Assembly (NCBI GenBank): GCA_051294375.1
Contig: JBJCIZ010000358.1
Coordinates: 85,726 to 103,444, forward strand
Source: Paraspadella gotoi
Taxonomy: Eukaryota > Animalia > Chaetognatha
Direction: 5' to 3'
Length of the DNA: 17,719 nucleotides
The notes under the pieces: model-generated
Seen by the model: only the letters and a program-made list of their open reading frames with translations
Database searches by the model: none
What the model was told of the DNA's origin: nothing
In this document: piece after piece, positions 44-17,052 of the stretch
How the letters are laid out: the number at the start of each line of letters is the position of its first letter
Position numbering within the stretch: the stretch's first letter is position 1
Translations under genes and position numbers: made by a program

Positions 44-711
44 CTTAAGTGATTAATGATAAAAATATATGAAAATATACTGATTATATTTAATGATAGT
101 ATTAATTAATTAATATTTTTTATGGTAAACAGAAATGTAATAAATATAAATATTATATTTTCTGAATAAAACCTGTTATGAAAAAAGTATATAAACTTAA
201 TCTTATTAGAAAATAGTAATTAAATATAGTAAAAATAGTAATAATTTGATATAAATATGCATCATAAACATTTATATAAATTACTAATACATTGAAAATT
301 GAAGTACATCTTTAGTACATGTTTTTGCTGAACTTGTCTTTTGGGCTAAAAATAAATTTTGATGTTTGGATAAAATTGTTGAGTTAATTTAATAAAATAT
401 TAAGGTGTTTAATTATGCTAAGATTTTTTCCTGACGTCAATATATTATTTTCCCGCATTCTCATTAATTTACTCCTGGTTAGGATACCTTTTTGGAGAAT
501 TTATTAACATGTGACAGAAGTAGTAAGAGTACTGATTAGATGAGTATAAGTTGAGATTTTTGCGTGTGATAACTATCTTAAAGAAGACGCCTAACGTTTT
601 TAAATAAGTAGAAAATAGCAATCCATTTTTAATGTGTCGCTCTTTTAACCATTTACAGATTCATGATTAGGATTACTTAATAATTATAATAATAATTAAT
701 TACTGATACTT

Positions 712-758
712 CTCAAGTTCCCTTGGAGGCGTGGGTTCGAAGTTCCCATCGAGTGCCA
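712..758 (+). pseudogene. Degenerate 3' half of tRNA-Leu (variable arm, T arm, acceptor strand)
   Basis: CTCAAGTTCCCTTGGAGGCGTGGGTTCGAAGTTCCCATCGAGTGCCA resembles eukaryotic tRNA-Leu(AAG/TAG) CTCCAGTCTCTTCGGAGGCGTGGGTTCGAATCCCACCGCTGCCA; no D arm or A box upstream. Confidence 0.7.
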
Positions 759-1988
759 CACACATTAAGTAAGCGCAAGACGCAGGGATTTCAAATGAGA
801 TCTCCAACAGTGGATTTTATGGCGTCGCGCCAGAATCCGTTCGAAATCCATTCCAGGAATTGTCTTCGTCTCGCGGAATCCCTCATTCCTTAATCCTTTT
901 CTTCTGTTTCCGGTTTTTTCATAAGCTTGTGGATGAATTAGGTTTAGGGTTTTTTTATCACTAAATATTATCACTTTACTTTGATAAAATGACTCTAATT
1001 GTTAGATTGAAATTTTTGCTTCGAACAAGTTTGATGTATTCATATTACAGAGTTAGTAGTTAAAACAACTTTAGTGAATAGTTAAGGTTATAATGAAGGG
1101 AGCGTCTTATGATATTCTTATTATATGGTTTATGATAATTTTGTTTTTTTGGTTTTTTTTAGTTGGGTTTTTGTGGTGGGTTTTTAAGATGCCCTGATCG
1201 GCTAGCTAATTTTTTTTTCATTCTTTGTTTTTTTGAGAAAATCGATCAATAAGTGCTTGCGACTCTTTTTCAGAATATTTGCAAAAAAAAGGTTTTTTCT
1301 TCATTAAATTTTAAATGATGCTTAAAACAATATCGAGTCCGGAATATTTTGAACTGCGTCAACTTAATAGCAGGCAGGAAAAAATTACTTTTCATTACAT
1401 ACTTTATATTTTTAAAAATACAAAATACTTTCATTATTGCATGTTTAAAAACGAATTCTCGAGGCAGTTTTTAAGTGACTTTTGTTTTTCACCTTTGTAG
1501 CTTTGAATAATTGTAAATAATGTTTAATAACAGAGTAACAAGCTTTGGGCTTTCTATTGGCCGTACATAGGTATTAGTTTGTTAATTTGTACAGCGATGA
1601 TAATTGCTTAATTCGTAAAAAAATTTAAATAATATTTATTTATTATGTTTTGTGTGCGTGCTTACAATTTTGGAAATGTTGTCATTAAATTTCCTATTCA
1701 ATATCTGAAAGAACATCAAAGCTTTTATTTCTGGAGGATCTCCAGTTTATTACGATTTTTGGTGTTTTTGTAATGTATACATTAATAATGTTAGATATGG
1801 TGTGGATTAATTGGAATTTTAGCAACTTTTAAAACGGATTATTTCTTAAAAATAGAGATACAAAAATGTAGTTCTACTTATTGAGCCTTAGAACAAATTT
1901 CTAAAAAATAAAAAAAATAAAAATTTATAATAAAAAATAAGACAAAGTTTGAAGAGAGATTTAACAACGATTTTTATTTCATAGTGAA

Positions 1989-3320: not shown

Positions 3321-4197
3321 CTAGTACACACATCTCTCCACGGCAATACCTTTCATTTTAAGAGCGCGATCGAGTTTTCTTCGTCCCTGATTTTTCTTCA
3401 AGCTCTCATGCCGCTTAACAACTAGAATTGCCGTTTCTCTAATCTGTTGATCCTCTTTTCGTAGTTTAACAGCTAAATCATTGGTAGTTTTTATCCCACG
3501 TTCACAACTGTCATTTACTACTGCTAAATTTGAAACAATTTTTTTAAATATTTTGTACCCTTCAAAATCTTCCCATTGAAGAACAGGTTTAAGCAACCAA
3601 TCCATGCAAATATTTTGTCTTTTGAAAATGAATAAAGAATTTTCATTAATTCGTGAACTTAACGTTGTTTGACTTGAAACAGCTTTCATTTCAGGTCGGC
3701 CTAAAGTTAATTTTCCTTTTTCATATTTTATTATTTCTTGAGCAATAGCTTGTTTTTCTTGAGTTTTAACTAAGCCAGAACAGAGGGCTAAAGGTGTTAA
3801 TTCAGCGGTAATATACCATAAGTGTTGGTTCATTTTTTTAAGTACAATATTAGATATTTCATTATCTATTTCTGACCAATGGCATAAATCTTTATATAGC
3901 TTAATGGTGTTATGCGGTGCATCAGCTGCGTTTTTGCAATTAAACCACTGGTATATATATATAATACGATAGCTTTTTCTTCCAAATCAAGAGGAACTTC
4001 ATCTATCAATAAAGCAGTTTTAAAAAGAACTATAATCTTTGCCATCCACCTTGCATTTGAAATTGCTCCAATCTTGCGTATAGGTTTAAATAGTTTTTCG
4101 CAATTAATATCTGCAAAATGTTTTATTTTAACAAAATTTTATTTAGAAACAGAAAAAATAAATAAATCTTACCAATGTTAACTCAATAACTTCTTTA
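3321..4197 (-). pseudogene. C-terminal part of a hAT-superfamily (hATm/hATw-like) transposase, frameshifted, with a 62-bp intron; 5' part lost in the gap
   Basis: Manual translation: KEVIELTL | intron 4172-4111 GTAAG...TTTTGCAG | KPIRKIGAISNARWMAKIIVLFKTALL ... YQWFNCKNAADAPHNTIKLYKDL ... KKMNQHLWYITAELTPLAL ... LAVVNDSCERGIK. GAxxxARWMAK, HLWY and VVNDxxERG are motifs I recognise from this transposase group. Two frameshifts (~4105, ~3960). Confidence 0.8.
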
Positions 4198-7142: not shown

Positions 7143-7696
7143 TTTTCTTCTTTTTTTTCTGTTTATTAATTAATTTTATTTTCTCAAATTTGATTTTGTT
7201 TAATATCAAAATTTGTCGTCAATCCAGATTTTTCTTATGCGATTGCGATGATCCTTTTCCTTTTATGATTTTTTTATCATTAAAAACAGGTAGAGATAAT
7301 TTTAACCAATCCCTAGTTCGGCCCAATTTGTATTGTGATACAAATTAAATTGATATTTTATGTAACAACTGAACATTGAACATATTGGTTTTTTTGCTAA
7401 ATGCGACGTTTGTAAGCGGAACCCTAAGCAATGAAAAACCCAGATCAAATATATCTTTTTACAATAATGAATTTTAGCGGTTTCTTTTTTGTCACTTGTT
7501 TTAGGGATAAGAAAACATATTCATTGACTGATTGAGGAAAAAAATTAAAAATTAAATATTTTTAATGGTTTCTTTATAAGCTATAAATAGAATGGAGTAA
7601 ACTATAAATTATGAAATTAAAAAGTAGAATAAATTTTTGTTTAAAGTATTATTTTTAAAAAATAAACTAGCTATATTTTTTATTTTTTATATTTTA

Positions 7697-7738
7697 TTAA
7701 TCCTGGGGTCGTGGGTTCGAGCCCCACATTGGGCGCCA
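7697..7738 (+). pseudogene. 3' half of tRNA-Lys(CTT) including genomic CCA
   Basis: TTAATCCTGGGGTCGTGGGTTCGAGCCCCACATTGGGCGCCA versus eukaryotic tRNA-Lys(CTT) TTAATCTCAGGGTCGTGGGTTCGAGCCCCACGTTGGGCG+CCA; 5' half absent. Confidence 0.9.
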
Positions 7739-8026
7739 CTCTATCTGGGATGGGGGTAATCTGGGTCTAACTAACGAAGGCAAAAAGAAGGCAAAAATGT
7801 GGGAAAACGTGTATGTACTACTAAAAAGTTAAAAAAAGGTGTACAAAAACGGGAGGGAAAATCGGAAGGAGCGGAGAGGAGAAAGTAAGAGAGAGAAGGT
7901 GAAAACGAGAAGTGAAAAACTGGGTGAGCCTCGAGCCCTGGGTGCTAGGAGGAGGAAGAGGAGGGTGAATGCGTGGATGACGAGACACGAGACTCGCGCT
8001 CGGGCTGGTTTGGTCGTTGATTAAGA

Positions 8027-8910
8027 CACTATTTTAAAAAATTTGAACCACTTAATTGAAAGTAGGGGACAAATTACAGCATGAGAAGTCCGAAACCCTA
8101 ATTTTTTTTTGTTATAACAATAAAAGCTATGAAAAAAAAATTCATTTTTTGGTCCTTATCCTGTATTTACTATCTAGGAAAAAAGTTAGAAACATTTTTT
8201 TAAAGTTATTTATTCAATAAAAAATATACAAAACATGGGTAAAACATTCTCATATTTGGTATGCCCTCCCTCGGCATGACCACTGCCTGCATTCGTCTGG
8301 GCATGCTCTCGTAAAGCTGACACACCAAATGTTTTTGATTTGTTGTATCGCCGTAAAAAATTTTGCAATGGTGGAACAGGGATTCCAAGTCTATTGCTGA
8401 TGAATTGTTGCGTCTTTCCCTCTTTTTCTCAGAGCTACAATTGCACCTTTATGAACCAAAGAGAGGGGCTGTCTATTCGGCATAACCAAATTTAAAAAAA
8501 ATTGAAAAAAATAACTAACTCAATTTGAAATAAAACAAATAAATTCAATACCAAGAATGTGGAAAACTAAAGGCGATTTTTTCCGCCATTTTTCACTAGA
8601 GTAGCCAATATTATTTTGCCTCTAACTTCTATACGGTTGGATCTACGAAAAAATGGAAGGAAGCAACTGAAAGGAAATTTAGTGTAGAATCTGAAACATC
8701 CTGATTTTTTAAAAATCGAGCAAGTTTTCGAGTAGATATCCTCATTAAAAAATGTTTCTAAACTTTTTCCTAGATAGTAGTCATATCTTTCATACCATAT
8801 AAGATTTTGCATTAATATTTTTTGGACTTATCTAAAAAAACATGATGTTTCAGACAACCTATTCAAAGGCAAGATTTAAAGTCACCGAATTTTTTTTATT
8901 TCTGCATAGT
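8027..8910 (-). mobile_element. Internally deleted, decayed Tc1/mariner transposon
   Basis: Inverted repeat 8167-8202 / 8747-8779 (TACTATCTAGGAAAAA-GTTAGAAACATTTTTT); Tc1-like end CACTATTTTAAAAAATTTGAACCAC at 8027; transposase remnant inside. Outer boundaries approximate. Confidence 0.65.
8250..8483 (-). pseudogene. Tc1 transposase remnant (N-terminal HTH fused to extreme C-terminus)
   Basis: With frameshifts: MPNRQPLSLVHKGAIVALRK..GKTQQFISNRLGIP.STIAKF.RRYN, then QLYESMPRRMQAVV.AEGGHTKY, matching the Tc1 C-terminal LxxSMPRRxxAVIxAKGGxTKY motif. Confidence 0.8.
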
Positions 8911-9652: not shown

Positions 9653-9699
9653 TACATTTTGCATTTACATTTAATATAAAAGGAAAAAGAAGCATAATC

Positions 9700-9736
9700 G
9701 AGTCGGGATCTGCTTATCAGCAGATCCGACTAAAAA
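9700..9736 (-). mobile_element. HINE-like 5' terminal hairpin (truncated), same family as 10587
   Basis: Minus strand TTTTTAGTCGGATCTGCT-GATA-AGCAGATCCCGACT matches 10587-10620. Confidence 0.55.
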
Positions 9737-10015
9737 CCTCTGGCTTTTTTCGTCAGAGCTTAGTTCTATTTATAGATGTTTATTGTTTAGATATGTTTTA
9801 CAAAAATGCAAAAATGCAACAATTTTCAGATTTAGAATGAATTTATTCTTCAACAAGGTTTTAAACAATAACAATGGTAAGCTCAAATGCTAAGTCTATT
9901 ACCAGGGTATTAACAATGTCAAAAGTTTAACAATGGAGGCAGAGGGAGAGAAAGACGAGTTTTGTGAGGTTTTTTGTCATCGTTGTTTATCCACAATATT
10001 TCTATTATTCAACAG

Positions 10016-10243
10016 CCATGCAGGCGGGATGGATTTCAATTGACAAGTCTGATCCTTCGGGGCCTCGGATCCGGAAGACGACTTTGAAGATCGAAGATGG
10101 AGTCCAGGCGGCGCTGAGGGGAATCGCTGAGATGCGGCTTGACGTTGAAGATAAAACCAAAGCAGAACTTAAAAAGCGGAAGCTTCTTGTCGATACGGAG
10201 CTCAAATTTTATGAGATCAGCAAGGGTCCCAGTTTCGGCACAG
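10016..10243 (+). CDS. FARSA: Phenylalanine--tRNA ligase alpha subunit, internal exon
   Basis: AMQAGWISIDKSDPSGPRI...EDGVQAAL...KAELKKRKLL...YEISKGPSFGT aligns with the FARSA N-terminal region; bounded by CAACAG and GTGAGA. Confidence 0.9.
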
Positions 10244-10310
10244 GTGAGAAATACTATAATATCCTTGGATTTAATTTAATTGGATTTAAGAAAGAGTTGT
10301 CGTCACTAAG

Positions 10311-10552
10311 TGATTTCCGAAGTGGAGACCGATTTGACGGGGGAAATGCTCCAGGATGGCTCCTGGCAAGCCTCGGCCTTTAAGTCTTACAACTTCAATG
10401 CGCTGGGCATTATGCCTGCCAGCGGCCACCTCCACCCGCTTCTCAAAGTCAGATCGGAATTTCGCCAGATCTTTCTGGAAATGGGATTCACAGAAATGCC
10501 CACCAACAACTTTGTCGAGTCTTCCTTCTGGAATTTTGACGCTCTTTTTCAG
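10311..10552 (+). CDS. FARSA: Phenylalanine--tRNA ligase alpha subunit, internal exon
   Basis: [14 protein letters not shown]...YNFNALG...[43 protein letters not shown] is the highly conserved eukaryotic PheRS-alpha sequence; ends CAG|GCAAG. Confidence 0.97.
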
Positions 10553-10586
10553 GCAAGATTTTCAATATATTTTTTTTCGGTTATCA

Positions 10587-10660
10587 TTTTTAGTCGGATC
10601 TGCTTATCAGCAGATTCCAATTCTATAATTCACTTTGTTGGTCTGTTGGTCCCACCCCCA
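10587..10660 (+). mobile_element. HINE/Helentron-like 5' end
   Basis: T run + AGTCGGATCTGCT / AGCAGATTCC stem-loop + CTATAATTCACTTT + GTTGGTCTGTTGGTC tetranucleotide-type repeats, the usual layout of these elements. Confidence 0.55.
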
Positions 10661-11151
10661 AATCTTGTCGGTAAATCATTATTATCATATCAGAACCACA
10701 AATTATGATAAATTATGCAAAAAAAATGTTCGTTAAACCGTAGTAAAAATTCTAAATTTAACTTTAATTAAAATTATAAAAGTGAGGAACGAACAACATA
10801 CTAATGAACATTTATGTATAAAAAAATTTATAATAAATTTTACAATTTACGCAGGAGGCCATATTTATACTACTACTAATCCAATAAATGTTAAAATTTC
10901 AAAAAAATTTTTTGTAAGATTTTTTTGCAGATTTAGATTCGTCATAAAAAGTTGATAGAAAGAAATATAACTCTTTTTTAAAAATTGTTTCATTAAGTTG
11001 ATCAAATTTATAAAAAAGCTATATTTTAAGCCAAAAATTAACTTTTTTATATTAAATATAGTTTTTTTAATTTTTAACCCACTTAATGAAAGAATTGTAG
11101 TCGGGCATTGCCTAGGTTCACCCCGCCTATAAGCATGACACCCTCAGTCCT

Positions 11152-11224
11152 GACCCGGTGGCTCATTGAGTAAAGCCATCAGCTCATGACCATTAGGTAA
11201 CGGGTTCAATCCCAACCCGGTACC
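11152..11224 (+). promoter_or_regulatory. tRNA-derived Pol III internal promoter (copy 1; copy 2 at 11544-11616)
   Basis: A-box-like TGGCTCATTGAG (11159-11170) and B box GGTTCAATCCC (11203-11213) at tRNA spacing; stems too degenerate for a true tRNA. Confidence 0.75.
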
Positions 11225-11247
11225 TACCCCGTGGGAAGCGTGAGGAC

Positions 11248-11331
11248 GGCCGTAAGCCACCTTGGGGGCGTGGCAACCCCTCAAGCCTGGTTCCAAGCCC
11301 AGGACCCGTTCCATTGCTACTAAAGGGGGTT
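11248..11331 (+). ncRNA. Twister-like ribozyme, copy 1 (probably inactive)
   Basis: UAA, P3 CTTGGGGG/CCCTCAAG, P4 CCTGG/CCAGG with loop TTCCAAGC; conserved GC reads AC and GA-GGG reads AA-GGG. Confidence 0.5.
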
Positions 11332-11639
11332 ATAGAAGTTACGGATAGTCATCTTCAGCCCACTTAGCGCCTTGCCCATCCTGTCGAGCGTATTCCAACC
11401 TTCTGATTCCAGGCCCATGGACGTGCCGAAGATTGCTCCCCTCCCTCCACTAGAAGCAGTGCAGGGTGGGTTACAATCTGGGGGGCATATAGTCGGGCAT
11501 TGCCTAGGTTCACCCCGCCTATAAGCATGACTCTTTCAGTTGTGACCCGGTAGCTCATTGAGTAAAGCCATCAGCTTATGACCACTAGGTACCGGGTTCA
11601 ATCCCAACCCGGTACCTACCCTGCGGGAAGAGTGAGGAC

Positions 11640-11724
11640 GGCCGTAAGCCGCCTTGGGGGGCGTGGCAAACCCTCAAGCCTGGTTCCAAGCCCAGGACCC
11701 GTTCCATGTCTGCTAGAGGGGGTT
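11640..11724 (+). ncRNA. Twister-like ribozyme (type P1 layout), copy 2
   Basis: GGCC-G-TAA-GCC-GC-[CTTGGGGG...CCCTCAAG]-CCTGG-TTCCAAGC-CCAGG-A...GCTA-GA-GGG-GGTT, compared with canonical UAA-P2-GC-P3-CCGG-UCCCAAGC-CCGG-A...-GAGGG. P2 pairing is imperfect. Confidence 0.6.
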
Positions 11725-12015
11725 ATAGAAGTTACGGATAGTCATCTTCAGCCCACTTAGCGCCTTATCCTCAGAATTTTTAAAAATGATTTATATTTTC
11801 TTTTATCAACTTTTGACAAGGAATTCAAATCTGTAATCGAAATTAAAAAAAGCTTGTTTTAAAATTTTTTGATTTTATAAGGATAGTAATATATAGTCTG
11901 CTGCGAAAATTGAAGAACATAAAATAAATTTTTTTACAAATTAATGTTTACTGATGGTATGTTGTTCATAATTGACATTTAGTATTTTTGTATGTAACTT
12001 TCACTACGCTCTAAT

Positions 12016-12030: not shown

Positions 12031-12241
12031 CCCCATTAGTAGGGGGATCCTAACTCAGTAAGGTGGTTAAGAAATTTGAATTAAGCAGCTGCTCAAACGA
12101 AAATTTAGACATTTTTAAAAAAAATTGAATAGACAAAAAATTTTAATATTACTCCATACTCCATATATTAATTTTTTATTATTTATTTATTAGAGGAAAA
12201 ACGAAATTTTTTTCGCGATTTTACAACATTTATTTTTATAT

Positions 12242-12285
12242 AATGGACAAGTTTTGACTCTAGTTTTCGAGTCTTCATCAGCATT
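12242..12285 (-). ncRNA. Minimal type I hammerhead ribozyme with GAAA->AAAA substitution
   Basis: Minus strand AATG-CTGATGA-A-GACTC-GAAAACTA-GAGTC-AAAAC-TT-GTC-CATT. Confidence 0.8.
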
Positions 12286-12305
12286 GCAAAAGACACTTTC
12301 ACAAA

Positions 12306-12884
12306 CTATCGGCAGTTGCAGAACATGCAACAAACTCGGGCCATCTGTTTAGAGAGGAAGACTGTCTCGTGCTGTCCCATGACCAAAACTTGTTCTCAAG
12401 AGGCATTAGAGAGGCGATTTGCATCAAAGCCCTCGAACCCTCTTTGAACCGTGGAGGACAATTCAAACTCCCTCCAAGCTATGATTCGCTAATCAAAACT
12501 GTGGTAGAGCACCCAACGCCACCTCAGCCGCACGGTGATTCCCCTGTCCCCACTCAACGGGTCAGGTGGAGACCTCCTAGCAGGCAATGGACATCTGATG
12601 CCTCTCCTGAGCCTGCAGCAACTTGGCACGACTCTTCTAGTGCTGAGCGCCGCCCAAAACGACGGCTGCAAGAGGAGGGAGAGGAGTCTGTATCTCCCAT
12701 TTCAAAACAGGCCAGAACAGATATTTGCCCTCCTCACCGTCAGATGAGAAGAGGGCTCTCGGCAGGCCTATCAGGCCAGAGAGATATACAAGTGGCACTT
12801 GGCATTTTTCCAGCCGGATCTTTGCCAGACCCAAATCAATCCCACTCCACCACAATATCCTCTCAGCCCATTACAGGCCAATGA
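12306..12884 (+). pseudogene. C-terminal fragment of a Penelope-like ORF: end of the GIY-YIG endonuclease plus a low-complexity tail
   Basis: LSAVAEHATNSGHLFREEDCLVLSHDQNLFSRGIREAICIKALEPSLNRGGQFKLPPSYDSL matches the SAVxEH..GH...R.I.EA..I...P.LNR..G..L...Y pattern of PLE GIY-YIG domains. Confidence 0.88.
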
Positions 12885-14669: not shown

Positions 14670-14711
14670 ATGCTGATGAAGACTCGAAAACTAGAGTCGA
14701 AACTTGTCCAT
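14670..14711 (+). ncRNA. Minimal type I hammerhead ribozyme (intact core)
   Basis: ATG-CTGATGA-A-GACTC-GAAAACTA-GAGTC-GAAAC-TT-GTC-CAT; predicted cleavage after C14708. Confidence 0.88.
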
Positions 14712-15659
14712 TATATAAAAATAAATGTTGTTAAATCGCGAAAAAAATTTCGTTTTTCCTCTAATCTATTTCCACCAACAAACGAAAGGATTATCACAAA
14801 TAATTATTTATAAATAAGAAAGGCTAAAAATTTTTTTAGGATTTTTTTATTTTTTAGGTAAGATTCATGAAGCTCGCAAAAAGTTGTCTATACAAAGTAT
14901 AATTCTTTTTTCAATATTTTTATCATAAGTTGGGAGCTGAAAAATTTGAAAAACTATTTATAAATCATCATCTTTTCGATAATTTTATTGCCTTTTTCTT
15001 AAATTTTGACGAAGAAACATAAACATTTTTTGAAAAGTTGTAAGTTATATTTTTTATTATAACTTTTATGGCTCAAATCAGAATCACATCAAAAAAAGTT
15101 AAGATTGATTTAAAAAGAAAATTTTTTTTTTGCAATTAATATCATAATTAAATAAAAAGACGTAATATTATAATTTTGGATACGTAGGCAAGAATAAAAG
15201 CATTAAAATCAAATTATTTTTAAAAAATTCTTTTTTTAACCTGAAAGTAGACTTCAAGACTAAAGTTTTGAAACCCTCGCGCGCCTATTGAATTTAATTT
15301 CATAGTATCACGTTTACATTAGCATTAAACTCGCAATTACCTCAGTGATTGGAATTGACGAAATTGGAATGAAATTTCTGGTGTTGGTAGAGGAGAGTTG
15401 TGTGATTGAGCTGGATATATTAGGTCTTCAAATGGAAAATCGTTGCATCGTGGAAATGAAAGTTTAAATGGAAAAAAACATAAGTTCATGATTTTTACTG
15501 TCAACGCATTTTACTGTATAAATTATTAATTAATTACTTTTTACTCATAATTAATTATAAGTTGATAAAAAAAAAAAAAAAAAAAAAAAAATAAACTTGA
15601 TAAGATAATTGAGGGCAAAATGGTTTTTGGTTCACAACGAATTTTAATTTTTCATAGAA

Positions 15660-15705: not shown

Positions 15706-17052
15706 GCAGATGTTTGTGAAATTTGTGGACAGTTTTTTGTGGTGAAAGAAGGGGGAGAGAGAGAGAGAAAGGGCAAACGTTTCCAAACACAGAGTTGAGA
15801 AAGAGAATAGTGGTCAAGGTGGTGAGGACAGGTTAAGAATGAGGACAGATAGAAGATTTTAAGTCTTTGAATAAGAAATGAAATGGTCAGAGTGAGAGAG
15901 ATTGAGAGACGAGAGAGGGAAAGAAGACAGGGAGAGAGAAAATACGTAATATATTTCAAATGGTATAATAAATAAAGGTTTAAATCTAAATAAACGGGTA
16001 TTAACACATTAACTATTTAAAGTAAATAAAGTAAGTTTAAGTGAAGGTGAACAATTGAAATGTGAAAGTGAGAAGAATACACTTTAGTGTAAAGAATTGT
16101 TAAATAATGTGTAGACGAACTAAGAGTTAAGATAGAGCTGTGCAACAGTGAGCTGGCCTCCTTGGTTTGGAACAAATGAAGGCTAGGGCCGATGGGGCTG
16201 GGTCATTGGCGTGTCATTGGTTGAGAAGGACCGAACAAACATTTGTCATTGTCGCGCTAGGAGAGGCCTTTCCTTTCGGAAACATTGTCAAGTGCTACTA
16301 CGAATGTCTCTTTGGCCTGATACGCCCCTGCCAGCTGCGCTCTCCTTCTCGCCTGCTGACGAGGTGGGCGTTTGTCAGTTCTTGCCCAATGCTTTGCGAC
16401 AGGAGTGGCTGAACTCCGCTCCTGGAGCCCGTTGTTTTGGGTCGACGCTCGCTCACCCAGCAGACGGAGGGAATTGAATTGCTAGCAGAGTCGAACATGG
16501 TTCGGCTTCAACTTGTAACTCATCAACCAAATGACACGCCAATCGACCGCAGCCCCAATCGCCGCTTACGCCTCTCATTGGTCCAAACCAAGGGGGGCCA
16601 GCTCACTTTGAGATCTATCTTCAACTTCTTAATTTCTAACATTATTAACAATTCTTTACACTAAAGTGTATCTTCTGACTTTCGAACATTCCATTTTCAC
16701 CTTCACTTAAACTTATTTATTTAATAAATAGTTAATTGTTAAGTACCTGTTTATTAGTTTAAAACTTTATTTGGTTGTACATTTGAAATGTGATTAGCTA
16801 ATTTTCCTCTCTCGACTGTCTGCTGCTCGCTCTCTCTCTCTTCAATCTCTATCACTCTGAACATTTCATATTCTTATTGCAAGATAAAATCTGCTATCTG
16901 TCCGCATGCTTTAAACCCTGTGCCTGCACCACTTGACACTTTTCTTTCTCACTCGCTGTGTTGGAAAACTTTGCCCTATCTCTCTCTCTCTGCTCTCTGC
17001 GTCCCTTCTTTCACAACAAAAACCTGTCGGCAAGAATTTCACAAATCATTTG

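What the first reader, a model, noticed from the sequence alone, without database searches (positions are those of the whole stretch)
7697..8026. tRNA-Lys 3' half with CCA fused to ~290 bp of LTR-like DNA: captured primer/strong-stop intermediate?
Seen: 42 nt of tRNA-Lys(CTT) from the anticodon loop through CCA, joined directly to a GC-richer, purine-biased segment. On the minus strand this reads as U5-like sequence followed by TGGCGCCCAA-GTGGGGC, a typical Lys primer-binding site, but extended far beyond 18 nt and not followed by gag leader. Known: CCA is added post-transcriptionally in eukaryotes, tRNA copying normally stops at m1A58, and Ty1 strong-stop cDNA can be captured at DNA breaks. 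Inference: an integrated tRNA-primed cDNA whose primer was copied back to about the modified base 37. This is the kind of chimera once proposed as a SINE precursor.
Basis: partly seen in the sequence, partly recalled or inferred. Interest (0 to 1): 0.72.

Follow-up and report, generated by a model that had tools for sequence, protein, structure and literature searches.

The report
Captured LTR piece with over-copied primer
The 3' half of a lysine tRNA, including the CCA end that cells normally add only to the RNA, is joined in this animal's DNA to 281 bases of a multicopy repeat that is likely a retrotransposon LTR; it is most likely a dead-end reverse-transcription product patched into the chromosome, a kind of accident that turns up in other animal DNA too.

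Summary
In detail: 7697-7738 matches tRNA-Lys(CTT) positions 35-76 at 38 of 42 bases, ends in CCA, and no 5' half precedes it. Reads show that the adjoining segment is a multicopy repeat with the last 14 tRNA bases attached in other copies. They move its far edge from 8026 to 8019: a family contig diverges after 8019, and a contig of the flanking repeat aligns from 8020. ATTAA flanks the insert on both sides, and its TTAA doubles as tRNA bases 35-38. The tRNA copy may therefore end by microhomology, not at modified base 37. The piece has no TATA box or terminal TG, so it looks like R-U5, not a whole LTR. A metagenome scan found 24 distinct comparable loci: 18 have an LTR-type TGT within 3 bases of CCA (1.7 expected), tRNA lengths run from 32 to 76, and 0 of 23 start at positions 33-39. 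Best reading: a captured LTR reverse-transcription by-product (0.6). Main rival: a retrocopy of an element that already carries an over-long primer site (0.25). The mechanism is known from HIV and Ty1. The parent element and the empty site were not seen directly.

The parts
7697..7738 (+). tRNA-Lys(CTT) positions 35-76 with CCA. 7701-7738 is unambiguously tRNA; 7697-7700 (TTAA) is shared with the target repeat. A37 = 7699, A58 = 7720.
   Evidence: 38 of 42 identity to the tRNA in L003; alignment A1
7721..7738 (-). The 18 nt that a normal primer-binding site would cover; the other 20-24 nt lie beyond A58
   Evidence: sequence; 18-nt stop at m1A58 from PMC13191261 passages
7739..8019 (-). 281-nt LTR-like piece, likely R-U5; pyrimidine-rich, no TATA or AATAAA-type hexamer, no terminal TG, and no CA next to the primer site
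   Evidence: multicopy depth and family contigs
7916..8019 (-). Sub-segment with several-fold higher summed depth than the primer-side part; shared with variants whose primer-side part differs; likely R
   Evidence: tables 2, 5 (joint 7748 to 7916) and 8
7696..7700 (+). Left copy of the 5-bp direct repeat ATTAA (likely target duplication and microhomology with tRNA 35-38)
8020..8024 (+). Right copy of ATTAA; a diverged contig of the flanking repeat aligns from 8020
   Evidence: table 8 record 7
7499..7695 (.). AT-rich low-copy repeat, left flank (likely the insertion target)
   Evidence: X1 depth about 800-2400 over 7504-7665, diverged contigs, record 10 stops matching at 7499
8020..8167 (.). 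AT-rich low-copy repeat, right flank; continues at 8780 after a MITE-like insertion
   Evidence: X1 depth about 1000-1700 over 8044-8151; the loose end behind 8169 matches the window from 8780

Best explanation
The locus holds the CCA-tailed 3' half of tRNA-Lys joined to 281 bases of a multicopy repeat, and is likely a dead-end reverse-transcription product of an LTR retrotransposon that was likely patched into a chromosome break inside an AT-rich repeat. Inferred steps: (1) tRNA-Lys primed cDNA synthesis at the element's primer site, giving a tRNA-U5-R molecule that stopped at or was trimmed to 8019; (2) its DNA end was joined to the right side of a staggered break; (3) the opposite strand was copied through the DNA and on into the still-attached primer, past m1A58; (4) the copy annealed to the left side of the break through the 4-nt TTAA shared by the anticodon loop and the target, leaving ATTAA on both sides. 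Shown: the chimeric sequence, CCA, the multicopy nature of the segment, both edges, the flanking repeat. It has no A box or reading frame and is predicted to be inert. Within this reading I put about 60:40 on minus-strand strong-stop DNA (R-U5) over a resected plus-strand product.
For: 38 of 42 match with CCA and no 5' half. Contigs from three runs of three studies begin at 7725 and run from the tRNA end into the segment (records 12, 17, 25), so primer-site adjacency is a family trait. X5 record 24 aligns 7943-8019 and carries 39 unlike letters beyond, X9 record 28 ends at 8019, X1 record 7 of the flanking repeat aligns from 8020 after 9 unlike letters. Depth arithmetic puts the edge 1-4 bases after 8016 in 4 of 4 runs. 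An empty site under the 7-nt-repeat model would match only 1 of 10 letters at 8020-8029. No TATA or polyA hexamer, whereas complete LTRs in L031, L022 and L033 show TATA-like boxes by eye. In other animal DNA 18 of 24 distinct loci have TGT 0-3 nt after CCA (1.7 expected). Same-family pairs have different tRNA lengths (L008 60 and L028 72; L024 55 and L035 76), which points to repeated independent over-copying. Reverse transcriptase domains lie next to L005 (E 2e-35) and L022 (E 4e-7), integrase next to L021. Read-through past m1A58 is documented for HIV-1 (PMC13191261 passages) and capture of Ty1 LTR cDNA at breaks for yeast (PMC10802722 passages).
Against: The parent element was not recovered; no gag-pol is linked to this family. 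The segment lacks the CA end next to the primer site, and the main family variant shares this (record 17 has its 3 substitutions elsewhere); this is atypical for an integrase-spread LTR. The empty site was not seen, because 7671-7698 was skipped as repeat. ATTAA is common in such flanks (1.2% of positions; 4.7% for any junction 5-mer). A neat target duplication fits target-primed reverse transcription better than break repair (general knowledge). Where the upstream edge could be read in other loci (L022, L028, L031, probably L035) the LTR looks complete, which is the plus-strand type, not R-U5. A 6-nt match to the tRNA 5' end lies near register at 7667-7672 (chance 0.004-0.02).
Confidence: 0.6

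Rival explanations
1. A master LTR element already carries an over-long primer site fixed by an earlier faulty plus-strand transfer. Its transcript, starting at 8019, was retrocopied by a LINE enzyme that primed internally on TTAA at a nicked ATTAA target (a tailless retrocopy). Same root cause, different last step.
For: It explains the 5-bp duplication, the microhomology and the start at an R-like edge. In the survey several over-long tRNA copies sit inside elements, followed by a second primer-site-like sequence, another LTR or a long frame (L024, L028, L031, L008, L019). Summed depth over the tRNA part is 72,000-103,000 in X1 against 112-225 for identical single-copy contigs, so many loci hold this tRNA part.
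Against: Family contigs break at 7725 in three runs, and in record 12 the two letters before 7725 do not align. This hints at copies whose tRNA match ends after 14 nt. It needs two rare events. The high depth may be ordinary tRNA genes plus other families.
Confidence: 0.25
2. A 5'-truncated copy of a SINE made of a tRNA-Lys+CCA head, a purine-rich body and a LINE-related tail at 7916-8019.
For: Higher depth at the distal 100 nt is what a shared LINE tail or 5' truncation gives; 5' truncation at a microhomology with a target duplication is typical of such copies; the CA end is missing; near-register 6-mer of the tRNA 5' end.
Against: No A-rich or microsatellite tail at 8019, and a family contig continues past 8019 (record 24), so the copy would be cut at both ends. 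No substitution at 7699-7738 appears among the 40 listed rows (75 rows not shown), whereas SINE heads usually drift. Several different sequences follow CCA in this organism (table 7), as expected for several LTR families sharing one primer.
Confidence: 0.1
3. An independent tRNA 3'-half retrocopy happens to lie beside an unrelated repeat.
For: tRNA halves are retroposed in mammals (PMC13174262 passages).
Against: Other copies in three studies have the same tRNA-end/segment junction; no duplication separates the two parts; the same arrangement recurs in 18 of 24 loci elsewhere.
Confidence: 0.05

Closest known systems
Over-extended plus-strand strong-stop products of HIV-1 (P1 whole tRNA, P5 stop at ms2t6A37; PMC13191261, passages read)
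   Same: LTR end, primer site and a copy of the tRNA-Lys primer running past m1A58
   Different: Those are mostly in vitro products with tRNA-Lys3 and a whole LTR. This one is chromosomal, uses the Lys(CTT) type, holds only part of the LTR, and ends on a target microhomology at positions 35-38.
Ty1 cDNA intermediates captured at double-strand breaks in yeast (PMC10802722, passages read; the original 1996 reports are recalled only)
   Same: LTR-derived cDNA inserted without integrase ends
   Different: Experimental breaks in yeast with an iMet primer. Here a natural germline insertion in an animal with 38-42 nt of primer; the passages read do not describe tRNA tails.
Okada-Ohshima model of SINE origin (1993; only its title was seen, in the reference list of PMC13174262; content recalled)
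   Same: tRNA-Lys plus CCA plus U5 complement in one piece of DNA
   Different: The model needs the whole tRNA with A and B boxes. This copy lacks positions 1-34 and has no shown amplification as a unit.
tRNA-half/LINE-1 chimeras (PMC13174262, passages read) and tailless retropseudogenes (recalled)
   Same: Half-length tRNA in a chimeric insertion with a target duplication
   Different: Those join mostly tRNA positions 1-37 to LINE-1. Here the 3' half with CCA sits exactly at a primer-site position.
Helenus TRIMs (Kojima 2024, PMC10886601; first of six parts and passages read)
   Same: tRNA-derived sequence associated with LTRs
   Different: Helenus has tRNA-like sequence inside both LTRs, where it serves as a promoter. 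Here it is outside the LTR at the primer site and there is one LTR piece.

Membership tests
Captured LTR reverse-transcription intermediate | Copy of mature primer tRNA (CCA) beyond position 58, directly at the U5 end | tested here: met
   38-42 nt with CCA; junction shared by family contigs
Captured LTR reverse-transcription intermediate | Adjoining segment is the LTR of a bona fide element (U3-R-U5, polypurine tract, gag-pol) | tested here: inconclusive
   Multicopy and primer-site adjacent, family continues past 8019; parent not recovered, no genome held; CA end absent
Captured LTR reverse-transcription intermediate | Inserted as a unit into non-element DNA without integrase ends | tested here: inconclusive
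   Edges at 7696-7701 and 8019/8020, ATTAA on both sides, no TG...CA ends; empty site not seen directly
Minus-strand strong-stop DNA (R-U5) | Far end coincides with the transcription start | not testable with these tools
   Only contigs were available, which cannot show an RNA start; the absence of TATA is compatible
Plus-strand strong-stop DNA | Whole LTR starting with TG | tested here: not met
   The piece starts at 8019 without TG, and a family contig continues further; resection could explain this
Stop at modified base 37 | Copy ends at position 38 independently of target sequence, and such ends recur | tested here: inconclusive
   Here the end is ambiguous over 35-39 because of TTAA microhomology; 0 of 23 other loci start at 33-39
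tRNA-derived SINE | Head with A and B boxes | tested here: not met
   Only the B box is present in this copy; other copies could not be read 5' of 7699
tRNA-derived SINE | A-rich or simple-repeat 3' tail before the target duplication | tested here: not met
   8019 is followed directly by ATTAA
Solo LTR or intact LTR element | TG...CA ends with 4-6 bp duplication, or primer site followed by leader and gag | tested here: not met
   No such ends; AT-rich DNA with no ORF of 80 aa follows the primer site
tRNA gene | Complete cloverleaf | tested here: not met
   ARAGORN 0 genes; Rfam 16.4 bits, below gathering 29

The most novel reading that the evidence does not exclude
The tRNA-CCA-U5-R chimera is itself amplifying in this genome without integrase: a master copy with the full tRNA head is transcribed by Pol III and retroposed, and this locus is a 5'-truncated daughter. 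That would be the Okada-Ohshima route from primer-plus-strong-stop DNA to a SINE caught at birth. Not excluded, because the main variant lacks the CA end, the tRNA part is several hundred times single-copy depth, the distal 100 nt is over-represented, and the sequence 5' of the tRNA half in other copies could not be read.
Probability: 0.1. Interest if true: 0.75.

Novelty: new member of a known kind. Interest (0 to 1): 0.35.

Why it matters
As one locus it is an inert fossil of a known error. As a class it matters more. One exact-match scan found 24 distinct loci with at least 31 tRNA bases plus CCA that do not look like ordinary tRNA genes, most of them at an LTR-type end. This suggests that animal LTR reverse transcriptases read past m1A58 often enough to leave a germline record. 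Their breakpoints could show which tRNA modifications stop these enzymes in vivo. Five of 23 carry the whole tRNA with both promoter boxes, the substrate that the old SINE-origin model needs. Such copies can also be mis-annotated as tRNA genes with encoded CCA: ARAGORN called a Lys tRNA at 10 of those 24 loci.

Tried and rejected
Only one laying of reads is available; it skipped 7671-7698 as repeat and listed 24 of 200 loose ends and 32 of 1071 pieces. This leaves open the empty site, what precedes the tRNA half in other copies, and what follows 8019. No RNA holder was listed; X9 is only guessed to be RNA and X5 has no cover of the flanks, and neither is used as evidence on expression. Viral contigs: 0 matches. 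I first read the piece as a whole LTR starting with TG at 8028 and flanked by a 7-nt repeat (P about 0.015); rejected after re-reading the strand convention table 8. Rfam hits to plant miRNAs and TCL6_2 are far below gathering scores and were rejected. A 14-nt match between the segment and the L031 LTR, seen by eye, is on the opposite strand and was treated as chance; BLASTN found no match between the window and any of the 39 loci once the tRNA was masked. A search for target duplications in 23 loci gave only weak cases (L035, 8 nt, P about 0.06). The organism could not be placed: the nearest PheRS proteins (P0001, P0002, P0004; 80-83% on one exon, 55-57% on the other) are unnamed and group with no named clade in a 34-of-120-protein tree that did not include the window's own exons. 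Ten paper searches found no paper that surveys such tRNA-LTR chimeras in animal genomes, judged from the listings and the five papers opened; the library lacks most older subscription papers, so this is no proof of novelty. No supplements were read.

Full report
Setting. The window is repeat-rich animal DNA: it holds two intron-separated exons of PheRS alpha and many inverted-repeat pairs. The nearest proteins are unnamed and could not be placed in a phylum. No whole genome is held, so the evidence comes from the sequence, one laying of public contigs (4 of 9 listed runs, three studies) and one metagenome scan.

The tRNA part. 7697-7738 matches positions 35-76 of a complete tRNA-Lys(CTT) taken from locus L003 at 38 of 42 bases, and the 34 bases upstream match at only 4. 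The best match elsewhere in the window is 25 of 42. Three of the four differences are in the 3' strand of the anticodon stem and one is at position 66, which L005 and L029 share. They are probably this organism's own tRNA sequence, since none of the 40 listed substitution rows falls in 7699-7738 (75 rows were not shown). A58 is at 7720, so 20-24 bases lie beyond the normal 18-nt stop. That eukaryotic CCA is added after transcription is established knowledge. One point against a clean half: a 6-nt match to tRNA positions 7-12 lies two bases out of register at 7667-7672, with a chance of 0.004-0.02. A diverged contig of the flanking repeat aligns up to 7668 (record 3), so I treat it as host sequence.

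The adjoining segment is a repeat. In run X1, contigs identical to the left flank have depth 112-225, the main variant of 7747-7830 about 3,100, and summed depth is 16,600-36,500 over 7909-8016 and 72,000-103,000 over the tRNA part. Summed depth is not a copy number, but the ranks are clear. Contigs from three studies start at 7725 and run from the last 14 tRNA bases into the segment (records 12, 17, 25), so the tRNA end is attached in other copies, one of them about 14% diverged. Loose ends behind 7736, 7740, 7743 and 7747 differ from each other. Those behind 7740 begin with G in X1 and X9, which gives a CA end one base before the primer site on the other strand. So other sequences, likely other LTR families, also follow this CCA. 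The window's family lacks that CA end, and record 17 shows that its main variant does too.

The edges. For minus-strand records, table 8 counts from the high coordinate: records 1 and 9 run off the stretch at 7450, and records 8, 14 and 29 agree on the MITE empty site at 8169. Read that way, X5 record 24 aligns 7943-8019 and carries 39 unlike letters beyond; X9 record 28 ends at 8019; X1 record 7, a diverged copy of the right flank, aligns from 8020 after 9 unlike letters. The insert therefore ends at 8019, not 8026. ATTAA occurs at 7696-7700 and 8020-8024. An alternative 7-nt repeat further out predicts that flank copies would match 1 of 10 letters at 8020-8029, which record 7 contradicts. 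The TTAA of the left copy is also tRNA 35-38, so the true end of the tRNA copy lies anywhere from 35 to 39. Limits: ATTAA is common in these flanks; the break at 8019 in X9 could be caused by this very insertion; the 39 letters of record 24 were not printed, so whether they are U3 is unknown; the empty site was hidden by a skipped repeat at 7671-7698.

What kind of piece. The 281 nt are 71% pyrimidine on the element strand, with no TATAA, TATATA, TATTTA, AATAAA or ATTAAA and no terminal TG. Complete LTRs in the survey (L031, L022, L033) show TATA-like boxes about 210-330 nt before the primer site, by eye.

How common is this? An exact scan for tRNA positions 46-76 plus CCA gave 39 loci. I set aside 13 that share a T-rich trailer and look like one family of ordinary tRNA genes (one of them, L017, truncated) and 2 duplicates (L036, L037). 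Of the other 24, 18 have TGT and 20 have TG within 0-3 nt of CCA (expected 1.7 and 5.9), the reverse complement of an LTR's CA end. In 23 loci (L006 is cut by its contig end) the tRNA copy starts at position 1 five times and at 4, 5, 5, 7, 8, 8, 10, 13, 13, 14, 17, 19, 20, 22, 23, 28, 30 and 45; none starts at 33-39. The pattern could not see copies shorter than 31 nt. Anatomies include LTR-tRNA-LTR-primer site-leader (L031), polypurine tract-LTR-tRNA-LTR start-RT frame (L022), LTR-tRNA-LTR (L008), LTR-tRNA-second primer-site-like sequence (L028, L024), a foldback (L007), and a probably complete short LTR with the whole tRNA in host-like DNA (L035). Of 117 frames of 90 aa or more, 62 were scanned with Pfam: RVT_1 at L005 and L022, rve at L021, zf-CCHC at L028, a weak DUF1759 at L019, a hAT domain at L034, three further weak hits (L001, L028, L035), and nothing in the rest. 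Two same-family pairs differ in tRNA length and in flanks, which points to independent events.

Mechanism. The shared root is inferred: reverse transcriptase copied its tRNA-Lys primer past m1A58. HIV-1 products that end at position 37 or run to the tRNA 5' end are described in PMC13191261 (passages), and insertion of Ty1 LTR cDNA intermediates at breaks in PMC10802722 (passages). The best last step is capture of the tRNA-U5-R molecule at a staggered break, closed by TTAA microhomology (0.6). The main rival is a LINE-made tailless retrocopy of a transcript from an element that already has an over-long primer site (0.25); it leaves the same footprint and explains the duplication well. A doubly truncated SINE (0.1) and a chance neighbour (0.05) are weaker. 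A stop at modified base 37 is not needed and is not supported by the survey. Priming by a cleaved 3' tRNA half is another untested way to end at position 35.

Known or new. Each step is known from HIV-1 or Ty1, and the chimera is the one invoked in the Okada-Ohshima SINE model (title seen in a reference list; content recalled). Ten searches surfaced no survey of such fossils in animal genomes, but the library is incomplete. Earlier notes of this scan report similar cases in other genomes (e1-7808317, e1-7807674, e1-9535092); they are unchecked and lower the surprise rather than add support. Three other look-ups returned nothing. Papers seen: PMC13191261, PMC10802722, PMC13174262 and PMC7472051 as passages; PMC10886601 as the first of six parts plus passages; others as listings only.

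Verdict. Real, most likely an inert fossil of primer over-copying, and one of a recurrent class. Interest 0.35; new member of a known kind. The bold reading, a primer-derived SINE at birth, has probability about 0.1 and interest 0.75.

Noticed in passing
window 11096-11773: TRIM-like element: two LTRs 93% identical over 277 nt, each with a tRNA-like A-box/B-box stretch, a short internal part with a purine tract, TG...CA outer ends and a 4-bp duplication GAAT, inside an inverted-repeat element (10807-11948). Fits animal Helenus (PMC10886601: tRNA-like LTRs, 4-bp duplications); membership not tested further.
   Followed up: partly
window 8168-8779: MITE-like element with 33-nt inverted ends inserted at TA; very high depth; the empty site is visible in other copies of the host repeat.
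   Followed up: partly
window 711-760: A second tRNA-like 3' fragment (25 of 42 match to the Lys 3' part; Leu-like by recall) ending in CCA and followed by GC-richer DNA; possibly a degenerate SINE head or another primer fossil.
   Followed up: no
window 12189-12884 and 14670-14765: 96-nt inverted pair with a hammerhead-like core in both copies, next to a 206-aa frame whose start resembles a GIY-YIG C-terminus (recall; no Pfam hit): likely Penelope-type remains.
   Followed up: partly
window 9694-10629: Two PheRS alpha exons (about 10018-10245 and 10291-10553, the second followed by a GC-type donor) lie between 43-nt inverted arms; possibly a gene fragment carried by a TIR element, as no further exons were noticed.
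   Followed up: no
window 3321-3986 (-): 221-aa frame that looks like a DNA-transposon transposase fragment by recall; no significant Pfam hit.
   Followed up: partly
L031, L022, L008, L007, L035: Clear fossils of primer over-copying in other animal DNA: LTR-tRNA-LTR junctions, a foldback, and an LTR with the whole tRNA-Lys plus CCA. L035, L002, L005, L021 and L032 carry all 76 nt and are better candidates for a SINE-precursor chimera than the window's locus.
   Followed up: partly
window 15723-17033: Large element with several nested inverted arms (I5, I8, I11, I24) and a GC-rich core.
   Followed up: no
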